Below the pieces are notes generated by a model. It ran no database searches and had not been told where the DNA came from. It worked only from the letters and a program-made list of their open reading frames with translations. This document shows, piece by piece, positions 20,743-26,913 of a stretch of DNA of 44,138 nt; positions within the stretch are counted from its first letter, which is position 1, and each line of letters starts with the position of its first letter. Origin of the DNA: Escherichia phage vB_EcoS_XY2; the sequence record MN927226.1; one strand, written 5' to 3'. Position numbers and translations under genes: made by a program.

Positions 20743-22143
20743 TTAACCGTCCACATTAAAATCAATACGAGTGATGTACTTGCTACCCCATGCAGAATCC
20801 GCTTGTGGGATGGTGGCGTAATCGCCAACTGCCGGAACAGTTACCACAGAGCCGTCGGAATACATAATGTCGATGCTTGTTGCGCCATTCATTGCCACTT
20901 TTGCTGATGCCGTTGGACGAGTTACCGGTGACTCCTCGGTCACTATCGGGGAGGAGGCAAACTCTGAAGGCTCCATCTGGATTAGGGCTATAATGAACCC
21001 ACTGACATCATCCCCTGTGAAGGTGAGGGAGTTAGACGGAGACAACATGTTTATCTGCGAATAAATCAATCCGCCGGAGTCGTTAGTGTCCGCTGACATT
21101 GAAACGTGATACCACCCACCACCAAGATTGCTTACGAACGACCTTGAGGTGTCGCCTGATATCAAATAGCCGGAGGCTAAGTCAACATAGGCATACTGGA
21201 AATTATCTAAAGCGGCTCGGTTGCCGATGGCTACCGCTGCCGACTGGTACTCATCTGCTTTTATAATAGCACTAATAGAGTATCTTGTTTCTTGTTCTGG
21301 GGCCTCTGCCTTGTTTATATAATGGTTACCTGATACCGACGTTGCGGTTAATTTAGCAGCATAAGTTTCTTGGAATAACGCCAAAGAACTCGCCGTGGTT
21401 GTTGTTCTGGCACGTGAAAATGATGTAGATAGTAAGTTGTTAGAATGTTCTACCACATTGGTAGCAGCCTTTTCCGGCGGCACACGCCCAACTGCAGTTC
21501 CGTCAATAAACGTAAGAGGCCATTCATTAGTGGCGGACTGCACAAGATTGCCGTTGCGGTTGATGTAATAAACCTGCGGCCCTTCATACACAATGCGGCT
21601 ATCAAGAGTCGACGCCAGAAGGTTAATCGGCGGATATCCGGCAGGGCCTTCATTACTCCAGATTCGTGGAAACGTTGATTGCGCGGTTCCGTAGGCTTTA
21701 AGGAAACACCCCAGCCCGTCACCATAGCAACCATACAAATCCGGCAGATTATTGACAAGACACTGGTTCTCGAGGTCCTGGAACGGGGATTTCTCGGCGG
21801 TTGCCGTGAAAGTAATCGTCCAGTTAATGCCGTCTTCGGTGGACTCCGCGATGGTGGACGTGATGGTTACCTGATAATCTTCAATACCCATGCCGAAGTC
21901 ATGCGCCATCCAGAAACTTGACGCGCCGCCGTCCACTTTCTCAAGGAACGACAGGAACGCCTGTCGCCCTAGTGCAGATGTAATCAGGGTTACGCTTATC
22001 GGGAACACATCATAATACGTGTCACGGCCTTGACGCACTCCGCCACCGGCTAAATCTACACTCCAGACGTTGTTGCGTCTGGTCATTGAGTAGCCTTTCG
22101 ATACCACCGGCTTAAGGCTACGTGGGAAATATAAGTCGCTCAT
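20743..22143 (-). CDS. minor/distal tail protein with long C-terminal extension
   Basis: 466-aa ORF directly after tape measure; TAATG coupling. Confidence 0.6.
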   Translation of the reverse strand: MSDLYFPRSLKPVVSKGYSMTRRNNVWSVDLAGGGVRQGRDTYYDVFPISVTLITSALGRQAFLSFLEKVDGGASSFWMAHDFGMGIEDYQVTITSTIAESTEDGINWTITFTATAEKSPFQDLENQCLVNNLPDLYGCYGDGLGCFLKAYGTAQSTFPRIWSNEGPAGYPPINLLASTLDSRIVYEGPQVYYINRNGNLVQSATNEWPLTFIDGTAVGRVPPEKAATNVVEHSNNLLSTSFSRARTTTTASSLALFQETYAAKLTATSVSGNHYINKAEAPEQETRYSISAIIKADEYQSAAVAIGNRAALDNFQYAYVDLASGYLISGDTSRSFVSNLGGGWYHVSMSADTNDSGGLIYSQINMLSPSNSLTFTGDDVSGFIIALIQMEPSEFASSPIVTEESPVTRPTASAKVAMNGATSIDIMYSDGSVVTVPAVGDYATIPQADSAWGSKYITRIDFNVDG

Positions 22144-24455
22144 TATTTAAACCCCGGCGCGTTTCTTGTGGCCTTGCGGGCCTTGCTAATCTTACTGTTG
22201 CTGTTCTGCAAAGATGCAGCAACTTGCTCTTCTATGATGATACGCAGACGGCCTTCATCATCCTGCTCGGTGGATACGTTGCCAATCTGACTCGATGTAT
22301 TATTTACAATGGTAACATTAGATGGGCCGGAAGAAGACCCGTTTTGCCCCATAATTTCTTTCATCTGCTGTGCGGTGCGTACACGTGACGCACCAGCGGG
22401 CATGATAACTTCTGGTTTACCACGTTCAGCGATGGTTGAAGCCTGCCCGGCTGATAACTGTCCGCCCTGTTCACGTGCGGACCTGATAGCGGAAATCTGC
22501 GCCATACCCGCCCCAACGGCAGCGGCGGCAGCTACAGGAGCCAGGAACGGACCAACTACAGGGATAGCCGCTGTGGACTTGTACGCCTCGATAGCCGCGG
22601 TGTACGTGGCGATAGTGGCCTGTACGATAGCGAATGCCTTATACGCGCCAGAAGCCTCGCCCAAAGCCGAACCGATGTTTGAAGCCATGTTACCGAAGGC
22701 GGTTGCCGTTGCGTCGGCACGCTTCGTAGCATACTGCTCATTGATGGCGTTAAGCGCCGCCTGGTACTGCTTCTCACTAATAAGCCCCTGCTCACGGTAC
22801 TTATCCGCTACCTCCAGTTTCTGCTGTTCCTGGATGTCGAGAAGCTCAAGCTCAGTAGCGTTCTGACCCATAATCTGCGCCATGAAGTCCTCGCCTTTCT
22901 GCTGCTTTTCCTGCTGCTCTTTTCTTTTCTTATCCAGTTCTTCCTGTCTGGCCTGCTCGGCTGTGAGCATAATTTGAGTTTTGGCGTTTTCATACTGCTG
23001 CTGGCTTATCGTTCCGGCGCGGTTGAACTCCTCCAGTTTCGCCAGTTTCTGTTCTTCCGCAGCGGTAATGCGCGAAATCTCATCTCCGGTTGTGCGGTCG
23101 ACAGTAGCCAGGAAATCTTCCGCCGCTTTTTTCTGACGTTGTGCCGCTGTTTCTTCGCGTTTGGCTTGTGCCGCCAGACGTTCCTCGTTCGATTTAGCCT
23201 CGCGGTCGGCCTTCTCTTTCTCGGTCTTGTCAATGCGGGCGATGTCTTGCTGCGCTTCCGCGTCGCGGGCCGCATTATACGCGGCTATCTGTTCTTTGGT
23301 GACAGCTTCACGTTTAGCGAACGCCTGCTTATCCAGTTCAGCTTGCGCACGGATACGCTCGCGGTCACTTAAGATAGCGATTTGCTGGTTTTTGACGATA
23401 GCTTCGTTCTGTTCCTGGAATCTCTGCGTTGTTGAGTTGACGTTACGACCAAGATTCTTTTGGGCCTCTGCCGCCGCGTTTGCTGACTTCTCCGCGTTCT
23501 CCAGTGCCGTGGCGTTCTTGTTGGCGTTGTCCGTCAGGCGGATAAGTTCCGGGTTCAACTGTTTTGTGTTACCGAGCCAGTCGGTAAACACATCGGCGAT
23601 GCGACGGGCATTCTCGGCGGTTGGCTCTTTGTTAAACGCACTCTGCGCCGCTATCATCTCCAGCGCCTGGTCACGGTTAACTCCGAACTTACTGCTAAGC
23701 TCCGCGATATTCTGCGCCAGCATGTTGACGCCTACGATGTTGCCCTCGTAAGTGCCGCCGAGTTTTTCTAATGTGTCGCCTACATCTGCGCCCTTAGAGA
23801 CTAATGCATCATACTGGCTAATCGCCGATGCCGTGGAGGCTTTCCACGTTTCCCATGATTCGGCATCTTCACGAACAGCTTTAGCGGTTTGCTGCGCGAT
23901 AAGGTCCGCGTTAGCCTTAGCCAGAGCAAGCTGAGTCTCTGCTGCTTCTCTGCTGATTTGGGTAAGCTGAATAAGGCCGTCTGTCAGTTCAAGAGAACCG
24001 GATGCCGTTTGCTGGAAGGTGTCTTTTAACTGTTTCTGCGCGGCTTCGAGGTCTTTTGAACTGCCTTCTGCTTCGGTTAGCGATTTGTACAGGACACCAC
24101 CGATTGCTGACGCAAGAGCAATTACGGCCCCAAGCACCGCGCCACCAGGGCCGAAAGCACCCGCAAGCTGAGAGCCTTGTTGCCCGATTGCTACGAATGC
24201 AGACGTGCCGGACTGCAACTGGACGACCATGTCCTGCACCTGGAAGCCTACCTGCCCGGCGGCGTTACGGAATTTAGCGAAACCGTCAGAAGCCGCTTTA
24301 GACGTAGCGGAGTTTACTTTATTAACATCCGGCGTTAGTTTGTTTACGGATGTGTCCGCACGGTCTGCGGATGCCGCCATAGCGTCAAGCTGTTTAGCGG
24401 CTACATCAGCGCCTTCTGTTTTTACTCTGGCAATTAGGGAAGCCGTATCAGCCAT
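22143..24455 (-). CDS. tail tape measure protein
   Basis: 770-aa Ala/Gln/Glu-rich coiled-coil ORF after chaperone pair; ATG 24455 with GAGGG RBS. Confidence 0.85.
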   Translation of the reverse strand: MADTASLIARVKTEGADVAAKQLDAMAASADRADTSVNKLTPDVNKVNSATSKAASDGFAKFRNAAGQVGFQVQDMVVQLQSGTSAFVAIGQQGSQLAGAFGPGGAVLGAVIALASAIGGVLYKSLTEAEGSSKDLEAAQKQLKDTFQQTASGSLELTDGLIQLTQISREAAETQLALAKANADLIAQQTAKAVREDAESWETWKASTASAISQYDALVSKGADVGDTLEKLGGTYEGNIVGVNMLAQNIAELSSKFGVNRDQALEMIAAQSAFNKEPTAENARRIADVFTDWLGNTKQLNPELIRLTDNANKNATALENAEKSANAAAEAQKNLGRNVNSTTQRFQEQNEAIVKNQQIAILSDRERIRAQAELDKQAFAKREAVTKEQIAAYNAARDAEAQQDIARIDKTEKEKADREAKSNEERLAAQAKREETAAQRQKKAAEDFLATVDRTTGDEISRITAAEEQKLAKLEEFNRAGTISQQQYENAKTQIMLTAEQARQEELDKKRKEQQEKQQKGEDFMAQIMGQNATELELLDIQEQQKLEVADKYREQGLISEKQYQAALNAINEQYATKRADATATAFGNMASNIGSALGEASGAYKAFAIVQATIATYTAAIEAYKSTAAIPVVGPFLAPVAAAAAVGAGMAQISAIRSAREQGGQLSAGQASTIAERGKPEVIMPAGASRVRTAQQMKEIMGQNGSSSGPSNVTIVNNTSSQIGNVSTEQDDEGRLRIIIEEQVAASLQNSNSKISKARKATRNAPGFK

Positions 24456-25226
24456 CTTCTCTGCCCTCAAATATTCCGTCTAAGCCCATGATAACCTCGG
24501 CTTCGAACAAACTTATGCCGTAACCGGCGACATCACGAAACGCTACCAAATCTTGCCATTTGAGCGCATCGCGCGGGATTATAACGATAGTATCATCTGT
24601 TTCGCGCTGTAGGAATTTAATGGCACGGTATTTCTCGAACACGTCGATAAGAGAAACGGGGCATTCCGGCCCCGTCGCTTCTTTCATCTGCGGTTCTTTA
24701 ATCACGCCCATTGCAATCAAAGCCGCCTGGTGGCCCGCCGCGATGTCGTCGAATTGCTTACGTTTGTGGCGGTCGACAAAGCACCATTGCGCAAATTCAT
24801 ACAGCGCTTTTACTTTTCCGAGAGTTTCTCACGGCTATCGGTGTGATGCTTAACTACGGCCTCTGCCAACCCACTGTACTGGTCGAACAGGTTAGCAAGC
24901 GCCTCTTTGCTGAATGGTTCGTCGAATGACCAACCGGTGACGATTTCCACGGCAAGCTGCTTGTTCAGGTCCATCACCCGCCAGCCCTTCTCATCATTAT
25001 AGCGCGCCCAGTTATTCAGCGCCTCGCACTCTTTATCTAATGGCGCAAGTTCTTCCGTAAGGCGTCGAATTGCCGTTGTGTAGGCACGGCCCGCACGAAC
25101 ACCAGCGTCACAATCGGGGCCGATGACCTGCAACCATTCACCGGAGTCTTTACCACTCGGCAGAAGGATAGGCATTTTAGTACCGGCGGCGTGGCGGTCA
25201 GCAAAATAGAAATCAGAAAGTTTCAT
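24448..25226 (-). CDS. tail assembly chaperone G-T fusion via putative -1 frameshift
   Basis: -1 frame open from 24828 to 24448 with no initiator ATG until 24711; heptamer GGAAAAG at G 3' end. Confidence 0.45.
24810..25226 (-). CDS. tail assembly chaperone (lambda G-like)
   Basis: 138-aa ORF upstream of tape measure; AAAGGA RBS. Confidence 0.6.
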   Translation of the reverse strand: MKLSDFYFADRHAAGTKMPILLPSGKDSGEWLQVIGPDCDAGVRAGRAYTTAIRRLTEELAPLDKECEALNNWARYNDEKGWRVMDLNKQLAVEIVTGWSFDEPFSKEALANLFDQYSGLAEAVVKHHTDSREKLSEK

Positions 25227-25333
25227 TCTTTAATCCTTTGGTTAAGAGGTTACAGGTTAAGGTTAATGCGCCAGACGGGAACCACCCGCTTTTCGTGTGC
25301 GACACTAGGCGCAAACTTATTCTAACACACTAC

Positions 25334-25362
25334 TTGCGCGCCCCAATATAATAGGGTACTAT
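25334..25362 (+). promoter_or_regulatory. early-type promoter TTGCGC-N17-TACTAT for plus-strand island
   Basis: ttgcgcgccccaatataatagggtactattca; near-identical to 34320-34350. Confidence 0.55.
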
Positions 25363-25390
25363 TCACCAGTAACTTACTGAGGGTATAATT

Positions 25391-25717
25391 ATGCGTAAAT
25401 TAGTATTAGCTCTGGGGTTTATGTCTTTTGCTACTTTTGGAGCCCCGTGCGAACAGGTATTTAGTGAATCTGTTCTTATGACTTCTGGTGTGCTCGAGAA
25501 AGCCGACCCTACTATTGTAAAGGCGTTCAAGGACTCTACAGTTCGCGAGTGTGAGGCCGCCGTGGAGGTTGGTAAATCGGGCCTACCCCCGCAGGCCGTA
25601 ACCTACACAGTGATACGTTCGGTAGAGAAAAACGGAGATGCTTTCTATAGCCTACTGACAGCCACCCGTCTGCAAATGGTAATGACAGGGTGGGCGATAG
25701 GCGCAGAAAGTAAATAG
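25391..25717 (+). CDS. secreted/periplasmic protein (108 aa)
   Basis: N-terminal MRKLVLALGFMSFATFGAP signal-like segment, two Cys; GAGGG RBS. Confidence 0.65.
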   Translation: MRKLVLALGFMSFATFGAPCEQVFSESVLMTSGVLEKADPTIVKAFKDSTVRECEAAVEVGKSGLPPQAVTYTVIRSVEKNGDAFYSLLTATRLQMVMTGWAIGAESK

Positions 25718-25782
25718 TTGCCTTTATTTAAAGGAATCCACTGTGGTTAAATAGGACAAATCCTAAACACGAGGAAGTAAGC

Positions 25783-26913
25783 ATGGCCCAGAAGAAAATA
25801 ACCGACGAACAGTTACAGGAAGAATTGAACGCCGGGATGAAGAATGTAGACATCGCCCGTAAATACGGCATCTCAGACCGAGTTATTCGTATCCGTAAAG
25901 CGAAGCTGGCTAAGAAAGGTGTAGGCCACGGGCGTGACGTTAGCCACCTTGTCCCAGACGGCTACAAGATTAAAGGGACGTCGTCTCTGGTAGACGAGTT
26001 CGGCAATACTAAGTTGCAATGGGTTAAGACAGACACCGACGCTGAACGTCAGGTCGAGTTGATGAAAGCCGTGATTGAAGGCATGAAGTCAGAGATTACG
26101 CCAGTTGCGCCGGCTAAAGCGACTCGAGCCAAACGCGACGACAAGCTACTCAATCTTTACACGGTATCTGATTTCCATCTCGGTATGCTTGCCTGGGCCG
26201 ACGAGAGCGGCGACGACTGGGATATAAAGATTGCGGAAGACCTGTTCTCTCGTTGGTTCGACGCGGCGTTTCAGAAAGCACCGGATGCAGGAACAGGAGT
26301 TATTAACCTGCTGGGTGATTTCGCGCACTTCGATAGTCTGGATGCCGTTACACCTGAGTCGCGTCACGTGTTGGACGCAGACACTCGCTACCAGAAACTC
26401 GTCCGCTACATGATTCGTATGGTACGCCGTGTTGTAGATATGGCACTGGTTAAACATAAAAATGTTCGCTTGCTTATCGTACAGGGGAACCATGACCCTG
26501 TAGGCTCTGTATGGCTGGCTGAAATGTTCACAGTTTTATATTCGAACGACAGCCGAGTGATTGTCGATACGTCGCCGGATGTTTACAAGATGGTGCAACA
26601 CGGAAAAACGACGTTGTTCTTTCACCACGGGCATAAGGCGCGATTCGATGCTATCGAACCGGTTATGATTGCCAAGTTCCGCAAAGCGTTCGGTGAGAGT
26701 GTTTACAGCTACGCCCACGTAGGCCACCTGCACCACCAGAAGATTGTAGAAAGCCGTAACATGATTGTTGAGCAACACCGCACCTTAGCGGCGAAAGACG
26801 CCTACGCCTCGCGCGGCGGATGGATGTCAGGCCGTAGTGCAAATGTAATTACTTATAGCGCCGAATATGGCGAGGTCGCACGTTTAACTATTTCACCGGA
26901 GATGCTGGGATGA
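25783..26913 (+). CDS. HTH domain fused to calcineurin-like metallophosphoesterase
   Basis: Ordered motifs SDFHLG, LLGDFAHFD, VQGNHDP, FFHHGH, HVGHLHH after an HTH-like N-terminus. Confidence 0.75.
   Translation: MAQKKITDEQLQEELNAGMKNVDIARKYGISDRVIRIRKAKLAKKGVGHGRDVSHLVPDGYKIKGTSSLVDEFGNTKLQWVKTDTDAERQVELMKAVIEGMKSEITPVAPAKATRAKRDDKLLNLYTVSDFHLGMLAWADESGDDWDIKIAEDLFSRWFDAAFQKAPDAGTGVINLLGDFAHFDSLDAVTPESRHVLDADTRYQKLVRYMIRMVRRVVDMALVKHKNVRLLIVQGNHDPVGSVWLAEMFTVLYSNDSRVIVDTSPDVYKMVQHGKTTLFFHHGHKARFDAIEPVMIAKFRKAFGESVYSYAHVGHLHHQKIVESRNMIVEQHRTLAAKDAYASRGGWMSGRSANVITYSAEYGEVARLTISPEMLG

What the first reader, a model, noticed from the sequence alone, without database searches (positions are those of the whole stretch)
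24813..24831. Putative programmed -1 frameshift site joining the tail chaperone to a downstream frame
The chaperone ORF ends at 24810-24812. The -1 frame is open from 24828 down to 24448 and only acquires an ATG far downstream (24711), the usual G/G-T signature of siphoviruses. The minus-strand heptamer G-GAA-AAG (plus 24813-24819) immediately precedes the stop. It is not the canonical X-XXY-YYZ form (GAA instead of GGA), so the exact shift site is uncertain.
Basis: partly seen in the sequence, partly recalled or inferred. Interest (0 to 1): 0.4.

Follow-up and report, generated by a model that had tools for sequence, protein, structure and literature searches.

The report
Tail chaperone -1 frameshift site
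This is the expected "G/GT" programmed -1 ribosomal frameshift of a Kagunavirus (E. coli siphophage) tail-assembly chaperone, already annotated in near-identical phages; the only unusual feature is that the slip signal is a minimal A_AAG placed directly against the stop codon, not a textbook heptamer.

Summary
On the minus strand a 138-aa tail assembly chaperone ORF (25226-24810) ends ...TCG GAA AAG TAA. The -1 frame is open from 24828 to 24448. Its first ATG is at 24711.

The window is a Kagunavirus, 99.4% identical to phage Bas73. The predicted 259-aa fusion (...LSEK|VKALYEF...) is identical to the annotated frameshift product of phage K1H (YP_009168853.1), so the feature is already known.

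In 96 related loci (82 distinct contexts, G proteins down to about 46% identity) the core A_AAG plus TAA/TAG is invariant. The preceding codon varies: GAA, GCA, GTA, AAA, GGA. Two lineages carry canonical A_AAA_AAG or G_GGA_AAG at the same spot. In two loci the shift window is only 7 nt.

Codon-position conservation switches from frame 0 to frame -1 exactly at the site. No start codon is conserved in the -1 frame. No conserved stimulatory RNA structure was found.

Best reading: low-level -1 slippage of tRNA-Lys from AAG to AAA, possibly helped by the adjacent stop codon.

Side finding: a conserved terminator-like hairpin lies inside the T-only region (24676-24655).

The parts
24810..25226 (-). 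G-like tail assembly chaperone ORF (138 aa, ATG 25226, stop TAA 24812-24810). An AAGGA ribosome-binding site lies at 25238-25234.
   Evidence: Pfam Phage_TAC_4 E=1e-8, 35.9 bits against a cut-off of 21.1. PHROG 15027 positions 1-138.
24813..24816 (-). Invariant slip core A_AAG: the third base of the penultimate codon plus the last sense codon, Lys.
   Evidence: Invariant in 96 loci / 82 distinct contexts and 25/25 representatives. A_AA.G is the most shift-prone tetramer in E. coli (PMC4066793).
24813..24819 (-). Heptamer G_GAA_AAG (non-canonical). The first G would let tRNA-Glu re-pair on GGA with a G.U in the middle position.
   Evidence: The -7 base is G in all 61 distinct G_GAA_AAG contexts, although the codon is TCG, TTG, GCG, ATG, CAG or CTG. 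It is free (A/C/G) when the P-site codon is GCA.
24810..24812 (-). G stop codon TAA, directly 3' of the slip codon. A candidate 'shifty stop' stimulator.
   Evidence: The stop sits at this position in all 96 loci: TAG 67, TAA 29, TGA 0. The fourth base is A in 81 and C in 15.
24813..24831 (-). Shift window: the -1-frame stop TGA (24831-24829) plus the 16 nt in which both frames are open.
   Evidence: In relatives this window ranges from 7 to 205 nt. The 7-nt cases (L053, L055) restrict the shift to the last two codons.
24802..24807 (-). Invariant GCGCTG block 5 nt after the stop (Ala-Leu in the T frame). Its synonymous third positions never vary. Function unexplained.
   Evidence: No conserved pairing partner was found.
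24448..24813 (-). T segment in the -1 frame: 121 codons from GTA 24813-24811 to stop TGA 24450-24448. Read only by frameshifted ribosomes.
   Evidence: Pfam Phage_TAC_18 E=8e-18. PHROG 15027 positions 139-259. Nine invariant residues lie upstream of the first Met. Three-nucleotide periodicity is in the T frame.
24448..25226 (-). GT fusion product, join(25226..24813, 24813..24448) on the minus strand, 259 aa.
   Evidence: Identical to the K1H ORF19B product YP_009168853.1.
22143..24455 (-). Tape measure protein gene. Its ATG at 24455 overlaps the end of T (ATGGCTGA).
   Evidence: PHROG 1538 E=8.5e-199. Bas73 annotation.

Best explanation
Most ribosomes translating the chaperone gene terminate at TAA (24812-24810) and make the 138-aa G-like chaperone. 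A small fraction slip back one nucleotide on ...GAA AAG TAA. The single E. coli tRNA-Lys (anticodon mnm5s2UUU) leaves AAG and re-pairs with the overlapping AAA. In this phage tRNA-Glu may partly re-pair from GAA to GGA. The next codon read is GTA (Val). Translation then continues for 121 codons in the -1 frame to give a 259-aa G-T fusion (...LSEK-VKALYEF...).

By analogy with lambda gpG/gpGT, the G part would bind the tape measure protein and the T part would recruit the tail tube protein. The fixed low GT:G ratio would be set by the slip frequency.

Shown here:
- the two-frame architecture and its conservation;
- the location of the shift on the last two codons;
- that the region upstream of any start codon is under protein-coding constraint;
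- family membership of both halves.

Inferred, not shown:
- that slippage actually occurs, and at what rate;
- which ribosomal sites hold the tRNAs when it happens;
- that the adjacent stop codon and its 3' context act as the stimulator in place of an RNA structure.
For: 1. Architecture.
2. Position directly 5' of the tape measure gene, in a tail module.
3. Both halves belong to tail-chaperone families. Pfam PF08748 and PF23812 both score above their cut-offs. PHROG 15027 spans the fusion.
4. A_AAG plus TAA/TAG is invariant in 96 loci / 82 distinct contexts, while the preceding codon changes among GAA, GCA, GTA, AAA and GGA.
5. The third base of the penultimate codon is always A although the amino acid varies (E, A, V, K, G). 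That is a nucleotide-level constraint.
6. Canonical heptamers occupy the same place in L038/L041 (A_AAA_AAG) and L096 (G_GGA_AAG).
7. The shift window is only 7 nt in L053 and L055.
8. The variable codon position switches at the site. Upstream, mean information by G-frame position 1/2/3 is 1.02/1.25/0.46 bits. Downstream, by T-frame position 1/2/3 it is 1.33/1.41/0.54 bits.
9. Residues V139, A141, L142, A146, F159, D160, I162, G165 and H166 are invariant and lie before the first Met.
10. No start codon is conserved in the -1 frame. ATG at codon 35 occurs in 18 of 25 representatives, almost never with an SD-like motif. Three representatives have no ATG, GTG or TTG in the first 70 codons.
11. 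Literature: A_AA.G is the best -1 tetramer in E. coli. Natural NNA_AAG sites are known in B. subtilis cdd and IS1222. Lambda uses G_GGA_AAG. E. coli has a single tRNA-Lys.
Against: - No protein or reporter data exist for this phage group, as far as the literature search shows.
- A_AAG alone is barely above background in E. coli without a stimulator (about 0.15%; 5.6% with a strong pseudoknot).
- No conserved stimulator was found. RNAalifold gives 3 pairs and -0.09 kcal/mol. The window's 90 nt downstream fold no better than shuffles (z = +1.15). A tested long-range helix shows no covariation. No conserved upstream SD-like motif was evident on inspecting the aligned upstream sequences.
- The stop codon's fixed position could also be explained simply by selection against a 12-31 codon extension of G.
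Confidence: 0.85

Rival explanations
1. The downstream frame is translated independently, from ATG 24711 or TTG 24720, as many gene callers annotate it (87- or 90-aa 'hypothetical protein'). No fusion is made.
For: The 87-aa and 90-aa products are in public databases from hundreds of contigs. ATG at T codon 35 is present in 18 of 25 representatives. The Pfam Phage_TAC_18 match starts at T residue 32.
Against: - The 34 codons upstream of that ATG carry 9 invariant residues and codon-position periodicity in the T frame.
- They are open in all 96 loci.
- The ATG is missing in 7 of 25 representatives. Three have no canonical start codon in 70 codons, and SD-like motifs are almost never present.
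- It does not explain the invariant A_AAG plus stop.
Confidence: 0.05
2. T is made by termination-reinitiation, or weak independent initiation, at the conserved YTG codon 8 nt after the stop (CTG 24804-24802; TTG in Jerseyviruses). The purine-rich GGAAAAG would serve as a weak SD.
For: YTG at +8..+10 is invariant in 25 of 25 representatives. Annotators call CDSs from this codon in Bas73 (CTG), SE2, VSt10 and Kenya-K53 (TTG). The 118-aa product is in NCBI.
Against: - 23 of 25 representatives have CTG, a very poor initiator in E. coli (own knowledge).
- Lineages with GCA_AAG or GTA_AAG have no SD-like sequence.
- It does not explain the invariant A at the third position of the penultimate codon, the canonical heptamer variants, or the -7 G correlation.
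- In the lambda paradigm T must be tethered to G.
Confidence: 0.05
3. The frame change is made at the RNA level: RNA polymerase slips on the A run and deletes one A (or adds two), giving an mRNA that encodes the fusion in one frame.
For: The site contains an A4 run (GGAAAAG). L038 and L041 have A6.
Against: Many relatives have only A3 (GCAAAG, GTAAAG) at the same site. Productive transcriptional slippage normally needs runs of about 7 or more identical bases (own knowledge; reviewed in PMC5009743).
Confidence: 0.02
4. The open -1 frame is a non-functional remnant and nothing downstream of the G stop is translated.
For: No direct protein evidence is available.
Against: The frame is open for 119-122 codons in 96 loci that have diverged to about 46% identity in G. 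It shows protein-like conservation and clear Pfam and PHROG matches.
Confidence: 0.01

Closest known systems
Annotated frameshift chaperone pair of Kagunavirus K1H (ORF19A/ORF19B; YP_009168854.1 / YP_009168853.1) and equivalents in K1ind2, fFiEco02/03, Shemara, Smarc3
   Same: Same genes. The fusion protein predicted from the window is residue-for-residue identical to K1H ORF19B. The junction is the same, after K138.
   Different: Nothing of substance. The closest genome (Bas73, 99.4%) and many others annotate two separate CDSs instead, one starting at a CTG. Annotation is therefore inconsistent, and none of it is experimentally backed as far as I could find.
Bacteriophage lambda gpG/gpGT (-1 frameshift at G_GGA_AAG; Levin et al. 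1993; Xu et al. 2004, 2013, 2014, as reviewed in PMC5009743)
   Same: A chaperone gene just 5' of the tape measure gene. The -1 shift lies near the 3' end of G, with AAG (tRNA-Lys) as the second codon. A low-level fusion is expected. One relative (L096) has exactly G_GGA_AAG at this position.
   Different: - The heptamer here differs by one base (GAA for GGA), so P-site re-pairing is imperfect.
- The slip codon abuts the stop codon in every relative.
- The proteins fall in other Pfam families (TAC_4 / TAC_18), and no sequence similarity to lambda G/T was tested.
- Two opposite-strand genes separate the tail tube gene from the chaperone.
NNA_AAG 'hexanucleotide' / A_AAG tetranucleotide -1 sites: B. 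subtilis cdd (A_CGA_AAG), IS1222 (G_CGA_AAG)
   Same: The slip relies on tRNA-Lys moving from AAG to AAA without cognate re-pairing of the 5' tRNA. The GCA_AAG and GTA_AAG variants of this family fit that class exactly. The distant relative Serbin carries C_CGA_AAG.
   Different: Those sites use an upstream SD-like element and/or a downstream structure. Neither was found conserved here.
E. coli dnaX (A_AAA_AAG with an upstream SD-like element and a downstream hairpin)
   Same: The same A-site codon and tRNA-Lys dependence. L038 and L041 carry A_AAA_AAG at the homologous position.
   Different: dnaX shifts at high efficiency with two defined stimulators, and the shift shortens the product. Here no stimulators were found and the shift extends the product.
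'Shifty stop' frameshifting (Weiss et al. 1987; prfB CUU_UGA +1)
   Same: A stop codon lies immediately 3' of the slip codon, so a slow A-site event could give the P-site tRNA time to re-pair.
   Different: The classical programmed case (prfB) is +1 and uses UGA and RF2. Here the shift is -1 and the stop is always UAA or UAG. A stimulatory role for the stop is only inferred from its invariance.

Membership tests
Phage G/GT tail assembly chaperone frameshift pair (Xu, Hendrix & Duda 2004 type) | Two ORFs lying immediately 5' of the tape measure protein gene within the tail module | tested here: met
   G 25226-24810, T 24813-24448, TMP 24455-22143 (PHROG 1538, E=8.5e-199). Tail terminator and tail tube-like genes lie upstream. 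Two opposite-strand genes (25391-26913) are inserted between the tube gene and G.
Phage G/GT tail assembly chaperone frameshift pair (Xu, Hendrix & Duda 2004 type) | The second ORF overlaps the end of the first in the -1 frame and lacks its own start codon and RBS | tested here: met
   The -1 frame is open from 24828. The first canonical starts are TTG 24720 and ATG 24711, with no SD-like motif. No start is conserved in 25 representatives.
Phage G/GT tail assembly chaperone frameshift pair (Xu, Hendrix & Duda 2004 type) | Canonical X_XXY_YYZ slippery heptamer in the overlap | tested here: not met
   The only candidate in the 16-nt overlap is G_GAA_AAG. Canonical heptamers occur at the same place only in L038/L041 and L096. 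A Z_ZZN tetramer (A_AAG) is present and invariant.
Phage G/GT tail assembly chaperone frameshift pair (Xu, Hendrix & Duda 2004 type) | Sequence membership of both halves in tail assembly chaperone families | tested here: met
   PF08748 Phage_TAC_4, 35.9 bits (cut-off 21.1). PF23812 Phage_TAC_18, 64.7 bits (cut-off 27). PHROG 15027 covers both halves.
Phage G/GT tail assembly chaperone frameshift pair (Xu, Hendrix & Duda 2004 type) | Conservation of the two-frame arrangement among relatives | tested here: met
   96 loci, 82 distinct contexts, G identity down to about 46%.
Phage G/GT tail assembly chaperone frameshift pair (Xu, Hendrix & Duda 2004 type) | A fusion protein is made at a low fixed ratio, is required for tail assembly and is absent from virions | not testable with these tools
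   Needs western blot or mass spectrometry and genetics. No such data were found for Guernseyvirinae.
Tetranucleotide/hexanucleotide -1 sites (Z_ZZN; NNA_AAG as in cdd, IS1222) | A_AAG in the zero frame with an open -1 frame | tested here: met
   24816-24813, invariant in all relatives.
Tetranucleotide/hexanucleotide -1 sites (Z_ZZN; NNA_AAG as in cdd, IS1222) | The host decodes AAA and AAG with a single tRNA-Lys (UUU) | not tested
   Hosts of the relatives are E. coli, Salmonella, Serratia and Enterobacter. E. coli has one tRNA-Lys according to PMC5009743. Host tRNA sets were not examined here.
Tetranucleotide/hexanucleotide -1 sites (Z_ZZN; NNA_AAG as in cdd, IS1222) | A flanking stimulator (upstream SD-like element and/or downstream hairpin or pseudoknot 5-9 nt away) | tested here: not met
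   RNAalifold: 3 pairs, -0.09 kcal/mol. Window fold z = +1.15. Long-range helix without covariation. No conserved SD-like motif seen on inspecting the aligned upstream sequences. An invariant GCGYUG 5 nt after the stop remains unexplained.
'Shifty stop' recoding sites | [quoted passage not shown] | tested here: met
   AAG TAA here. AAG TAR in 96 of 96 loci, never TGA.
'Shifty stop' recoding sites | Frameshift efficiency depends on the stop codon and on release factor level | not testable with these tools
   Needs reporter assays with the stop replaced, or with RF1 level altered.

The most novel reading that the evidence does not exclude
The frameshift is one half of a two-part dosage device. 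A structure-less 'shifty stop' signal (A_AAG-UAR-[A/C]N-GCGYUG) sends a few percent of ribosomes into the T frame. The conserved intrinsic-terminator-like hairpin inside the T-only region (24676-24655) ends most transcripts after G. Only transcripts whose leading ribosome has frameshifted and is translating T, so that the hairpin is melted, or that escape termination, would extend into the tape measure and tail-tip genes. This would couple TMP and GT supply and keep G in large excess.
Probability: 0.1. Interest if true: 0.6.

Novelty: already known. Interest (0 to 1): 0.25.

Why it matters
For genome annotation it settles a practical inconsistency. Records of this phage group variously show a joined frameshift CDS, two separate 'chaperones' (one starting at CTG), an 87-90-aa hypothetical protein, or an explicit statement that no slippery sequence exists. 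The comparative evidence says the joined CDS with the junction ...EK|V... is right for the whole subfamily.

For recoding biology it adds a well-populated natural series in which the 5' codon of an NNA_AAG site varies while A_AAG plus UAR stays fixed. That series could be used to test how much P-site re-pairing and an adjacent stop codon contribute to -1 slippage when no RNA structure is present.

It does not change the general picture of tail assembly.

Tried and rejected
- Downstream stimulatory structure. RNAalifold on 25 representatives (-9..+89) found only a 3-bp stem with no covariation. The window's 90 nt fold no better than shuffles.
- Partners for the invariant GCGCUG (pattern YRGYGY). 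None is positionally conserved.
- A long-range helix suggested by single-sequence folds (CUGU.GAAUU with AAUUC.ACAG). 84% of cells pair, equal to the shuffle mean, so it reflects conserved amino-acid motifs (E-F, F-D-S). Rejected.
- Upstream SD-like element. None seen on inspecting the aligned upstream sequences.
- Structure of the fusion. A single-sequence AlphaFold2 model gave pLDDT 35, which is unusable, so no fold search was run.
- PDB sequence search. No meaningful hit.
- Literature search for 'GGAAAAG' with frameshift or chaperone. No paper found.
- The cdd paper (Mejlhede 1999) is not held. It is cited only through the review.
- Junction one codon earlier (...LSGKV...). Not in the protein collection.
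- The large protein-database searches were not used, because 96 DNA loci already answered the question.

Full report
OBSERVATION

Read on the minus strand, the region is ...AGC CGT GAG AAA CTC TCG GAA AAG TAA AAG CGC TGT ATG....

- The 138-aa ORF 25226..24810 ends with TAA at 24812-24810.
- In the -1 frame a TGA lies at 24831-24829. The frame is then open from 24828 to the TGA at 24450-24448.
- Its first ATG is at 24711. A TTG is at 24720.
- G_GAA_AAG occupies 24819-24813 and touches the stop.

Every coordinate in the finding is correct.

An open -1 frame beyond a stop is not rare in this window, because neighbouring genes overlap. What is special is that no start codon lies near the junction. 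This is also the only long frame in the window that ends in A_AAG plus a stop. The 15-mer AAAGTARNNGCGYTG occurs once in the window and in none of 100 shuffles.

WHAT THE WINDOW IS

The region is 99.4% identical to Escherichia phage Bas73 and 94-99% identical to some thirty other Kagunavirus genomes (Guernseyvirinae).

Gene order on the minus strand (Bas73 annotation):
- tail terminator, 28751-28341;
- tail tube-like protein, 28341-27169;
- two plus-strand genes: an exonuclease at 25783-26913 and a hypothetical gene at 25391-25717;
- the chaperone G;
- the -1 frame (T);
- the tape measure protein, 24455-22143, PHROG 1538, E=8.5e-199.

G matches Pfam Phage_TAC_4 and T matches Phage_TAC_18, both above their curated cut-offs. 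PHROG 15027 is a 259-position profile. G fills its positions 1-138 and T fills 139-259.

ALREADY ANNOTATED

- Joined (two-piece) CDSs for this pair exist in K1H (ORF19A/19B), K1ind2 (ORF21A/21B), fFiEco02, fFiEco03, Shemara and Smarc3.
- The fusion built from the window (...REKLSEK|VKALYEF...) is an exact match to ADA82316.1 / YP_009168853.1, 'tail assembly chaperone [Escherichia phage K1H]'.
- A version with the junction one codon earlier (...LSGKV...) is not in the collection.
- Other records annotate an 87-aa ORF (ATG), a 90-aa ORF (TTG) or a 118-aa ORF (CTG) instead.

I found no experimental test of it.

COMPARATIVE ANALYSIS

I collected 16 annotated relatives and 80 IMG/VR loci. The IMG/VR loci were found with N-terminal peptide patterns of G, which are independent of the site. 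The window plus 95 of these loci (96 in all, giving 82 distinct 240-nt contexts) share the arrangement. G identity falls to about 46%.

1. All 96 end G with NNA AAG TAR. The -1 frame continues for 119-122 codons and stops just inside the tape measure gene (two contigs are truncated).

2. The codon before AAG varies among the 82 distinct contexts:
 - GAA, 61 contexts;
 - GCA, 14;
 - GTA, 4;
 - AAA, 2;
 - GGA, 1.
 The amino acid changes (E, A, V, K, G) but the third base is always A. That points to a nucleotide-level constraint for A_AAG.

3. The AAA and GGA variants give the canonical heptamers A_AAA_AAG (as in dnaX) and G_GGA_AAG (as in lambda) at exactly this position.

4. In L053 and L055 a -1-frame TAA lies 7 nt before the G stop (...CT TAA CGCAAAG TAA). 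The shift must therefore occur on the last two codons.

5. The base before the heptamer's second codon (position -7) depends on the P-site codon:
 - G in all 61 G_GAA_AAG contexts, although the codon carrying it is TCG, TTG, GCG, ATG, CAG or CTG;
 - A with AAA;
 - G with GGA and with GTA;
 - free (A, C or G) with GCA, where re-pairing of tRNA-Ala is impossible whatever the base.
 This pattern suggests partial P-site re-pairing is used where it is available (GAA to GGA keeps positions 1 and 3 and gives a G.U in the middle). It is dispensable elsewhere.

6. Among 25 representatives less than 88% identical to each other, the poorly conserved codon position is G-frame position 3 upstream of the site (0.46 bits against 1.02 and 1.25). 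Downstream it is T-frame position 3 (0.54 bits against 1.33 and 1.41). The switch falls exactly at the site.

7. Nine invariant residues of T (V139, A141, L142, A146, F159, D160, I162, G165, H166) lie upstream of the first Met.

8. No start codon is conserved in the T frame. ATG at codon 35 occurs in 18 of 25 representatives, almost always without an SD-like motif. L047, L048 and L056 have no ATG, GTG or TTG in 70 codons.

Together these points show that the T frame is translated from the junction onward and that entry occurs at A_AAG.

MECHANISM

Established knowledge from the literature:
- A_AA.G is by far the most shift-prone -1 tetramer in E. coli. It reaches 5.6% with a strong pseudoknot but is barely above background alone (PMC4066793).
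- NNA_AAG sites are used naturally: A_CGA_AAG in B. subtilis cdd and G_CGA_AAG in IS1222. Efficiency depends on the 5' codon's tRNA (PMC5009743).
- E. coli has a single tRNA-Lys for AAA and AAG.
- Lambda G/GT uses G_GGA_AAG. G and GT are needed at about 30:1.

I therefore propose a -1 slip of tRNA-Lys from AAG to AAA, after which GTA (Val) is read.

I looked for a stimulator and found none:
- RNAalifold predicts 3 pairs at -0.09 kcal/mol.
- The window's downstream 90 nt have z = +1.15 against shuffles.
- A candidate long-range helix pairs no better than column shuffles.
- No conserved upstream SD-like motif was evident on inspecting the aligned upstream sequences.

What is conserved instead:
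- The stop codon directly after AAG: TAG 67, TAA 29, TGA 0 of 96. TGA would keep Val in the T frame through GTG.
- The fourth base: A in 81 and C in 15, never U or G.
- An invariant GCG YTG at +5..+10 whose synonymous third positions never vary, although neighbouring four-fold sites are saturated.

A 'shifty stop' effect is a reasonable inference. With peptidyl-tRNA-Lys in the P site and slow release-factor action at a weak UAR-A/C context, the tRNA would have time to slip. This is only an inference. Three caveats apply:
- The stop is also held in place by selection against a 12-31 codon extension of G.
- The fourth base is also the second base of a T-frame codon.
- The GCGYUG block remains unexplained.

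I put about 0.4 on the stop being a true stimulator. I put 0.85 on the frameshift itself.

RIVALS

- Independent initiation at ATG 24711 or TTG 24720. It fails on points 6-8 above.
- Reinitiation at the invariant YTG 8 nt after the stop. It is not excluded. But that codon is CTG in 23 of 25 representatives, lineages with GCA or GTA have no SD-like sequence, and it explains none of points 2-5.
- Transcriptional slippage. It is unlikely because many relatives have only three A's at the site.

SIDE FINDING

The consensus scan flagged a terminator-like hairpin on the minus strand at 24676-24655, GACGGGGCCGGAATGCCCCGTT followed by TCTCTTATCG. It lies inside the part of T that only frameshifted ribosomes read. 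It is about 137 nt 3' of the slip site and about 200 nt 5' of the tape measure start.

- At the same position, 47 of 86 distinct relatives have a GC-rich stem of at least 6 bp. In 32 of them at least 6 of the next 10 bases are U. K1ind-type phages have GGGGTGGGC/GCCCGCCCC followed by TTTTTATATC.
- The base of the stem shows compensatory changes, including at synonymous and flanking codon positions. Pair 22-41 is GC in 10 and AU in 7. Pair 23-40 is AU in 9, CG in 3 and GC in 3. Pair 24-39 is GC in 11, UG in 4, GU in 2, CG in 1 and UA in 1.
- The covariation score is 0.247 against a shuffle mean of 0.118, reached by 0 of 500 shuffles. The slide-by-+3 control is nearly as high (0.244), so this is suggestive, not conclusive.
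- Cornellvirus-like and phiEap-2-like lineages lack the hairpin, so RNAalifold on all 25 representatives predicts nothing.
- It is too far from the slip site to be a frameshift stimulator. A partial transcription terminator after G, lowering TMP relative to G, is a plausible function. Coupling to frameshifted ribosomes is speculation.

VERDICT

The feature is the ordinary G/GT frameshift of a known phage group. It is already annotated with the identical product, so it counts as already known.

The modest added value has three parts:
- a clear comparative definition of the signal, A_AAG plus UAR, with the heptamer being optional;
- the absence of a conserved RNA stimulator;
- two unexplained conserved RNA-level elements nearby, GCGYUG and the intragenic hairpin.

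Noticed in passing
window 24655-24676 (minus strand): A terminator-like GC-rich hairpin with a U-rich tail lies inside the T-only coding region. It is present at the same position in 47 of 86 distinct relatives, with compensatory changes at the stem base. It is absent from Cornellvirus-like lineages. It may be a partial terminator or attenuator between G and the tape measure gene.
   Followed up: partly
window 24802-24807 (minus strand): GCGCTG 5 nt after the G stop is invariant (GCGYTG) in 25 diverged representatives, including two synonymous third positions, while nearby four-fold sites are saturated. No pairing partner or known motif was found.
   Followed up: partly
window 24810-24812 and homologous positions in L001-L097: The G stop is TAG (67) or TAA (29) and never TGA in 96 loci, although AAG TGA would keep Val (GTG) in the T frame. 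The base after the stop is only A or C. This could reflect RF1-type termination or a weak termination context, or protein constraints.
   Followed up: partly
window 25391-26913 (plus strand): Two opposite-strand genes, a hypothetical gene (PHROG 14165) and a DNA repair exonuclease/metallophosphoesterase (PHROG 704), sit between the tail tube-like gene and the chaperone gene. The chaperone-TMP block must therefore have its own promoter in the ~165-nt spacer 25227-25390. The consensus scan found no promoter-like site for the minus strand there.
   Followed up: no
L015 (Serratia phage Serbin) 1300-1340: This distant relative (30% identity in G) lacks A_AAG at the stop. It has C_CGA_AAG three codons before the stop, the same hexamer as B. 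subtilis cdd and IS1222, with the -1 frame open. It is annotated as two separate hypothetical proteins.
   Followed up: partly
window 24448-24813; public records of relatives: Databases hold four different versions of the downstream product: a 259-aa fusion, and 118-aa (CTG start), 90-aa (TTG) and 87-aa (ATG) ORFs. All are grouped in one 90% cluster together with the 138-aa G protein. This is an annotation inconsistency worth correcting.
   Followed up: yes
L096, L038, L041 (IMG/VR contigs): Natural single-base variants turn the site into the canonical heptamers G_GGA_AAG (L096) and A_AAA_AAG (L038, L041). They would serve as ready-made comparators for measuring how much the heptamer adds over A_AAG alone.
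   Followed up: no
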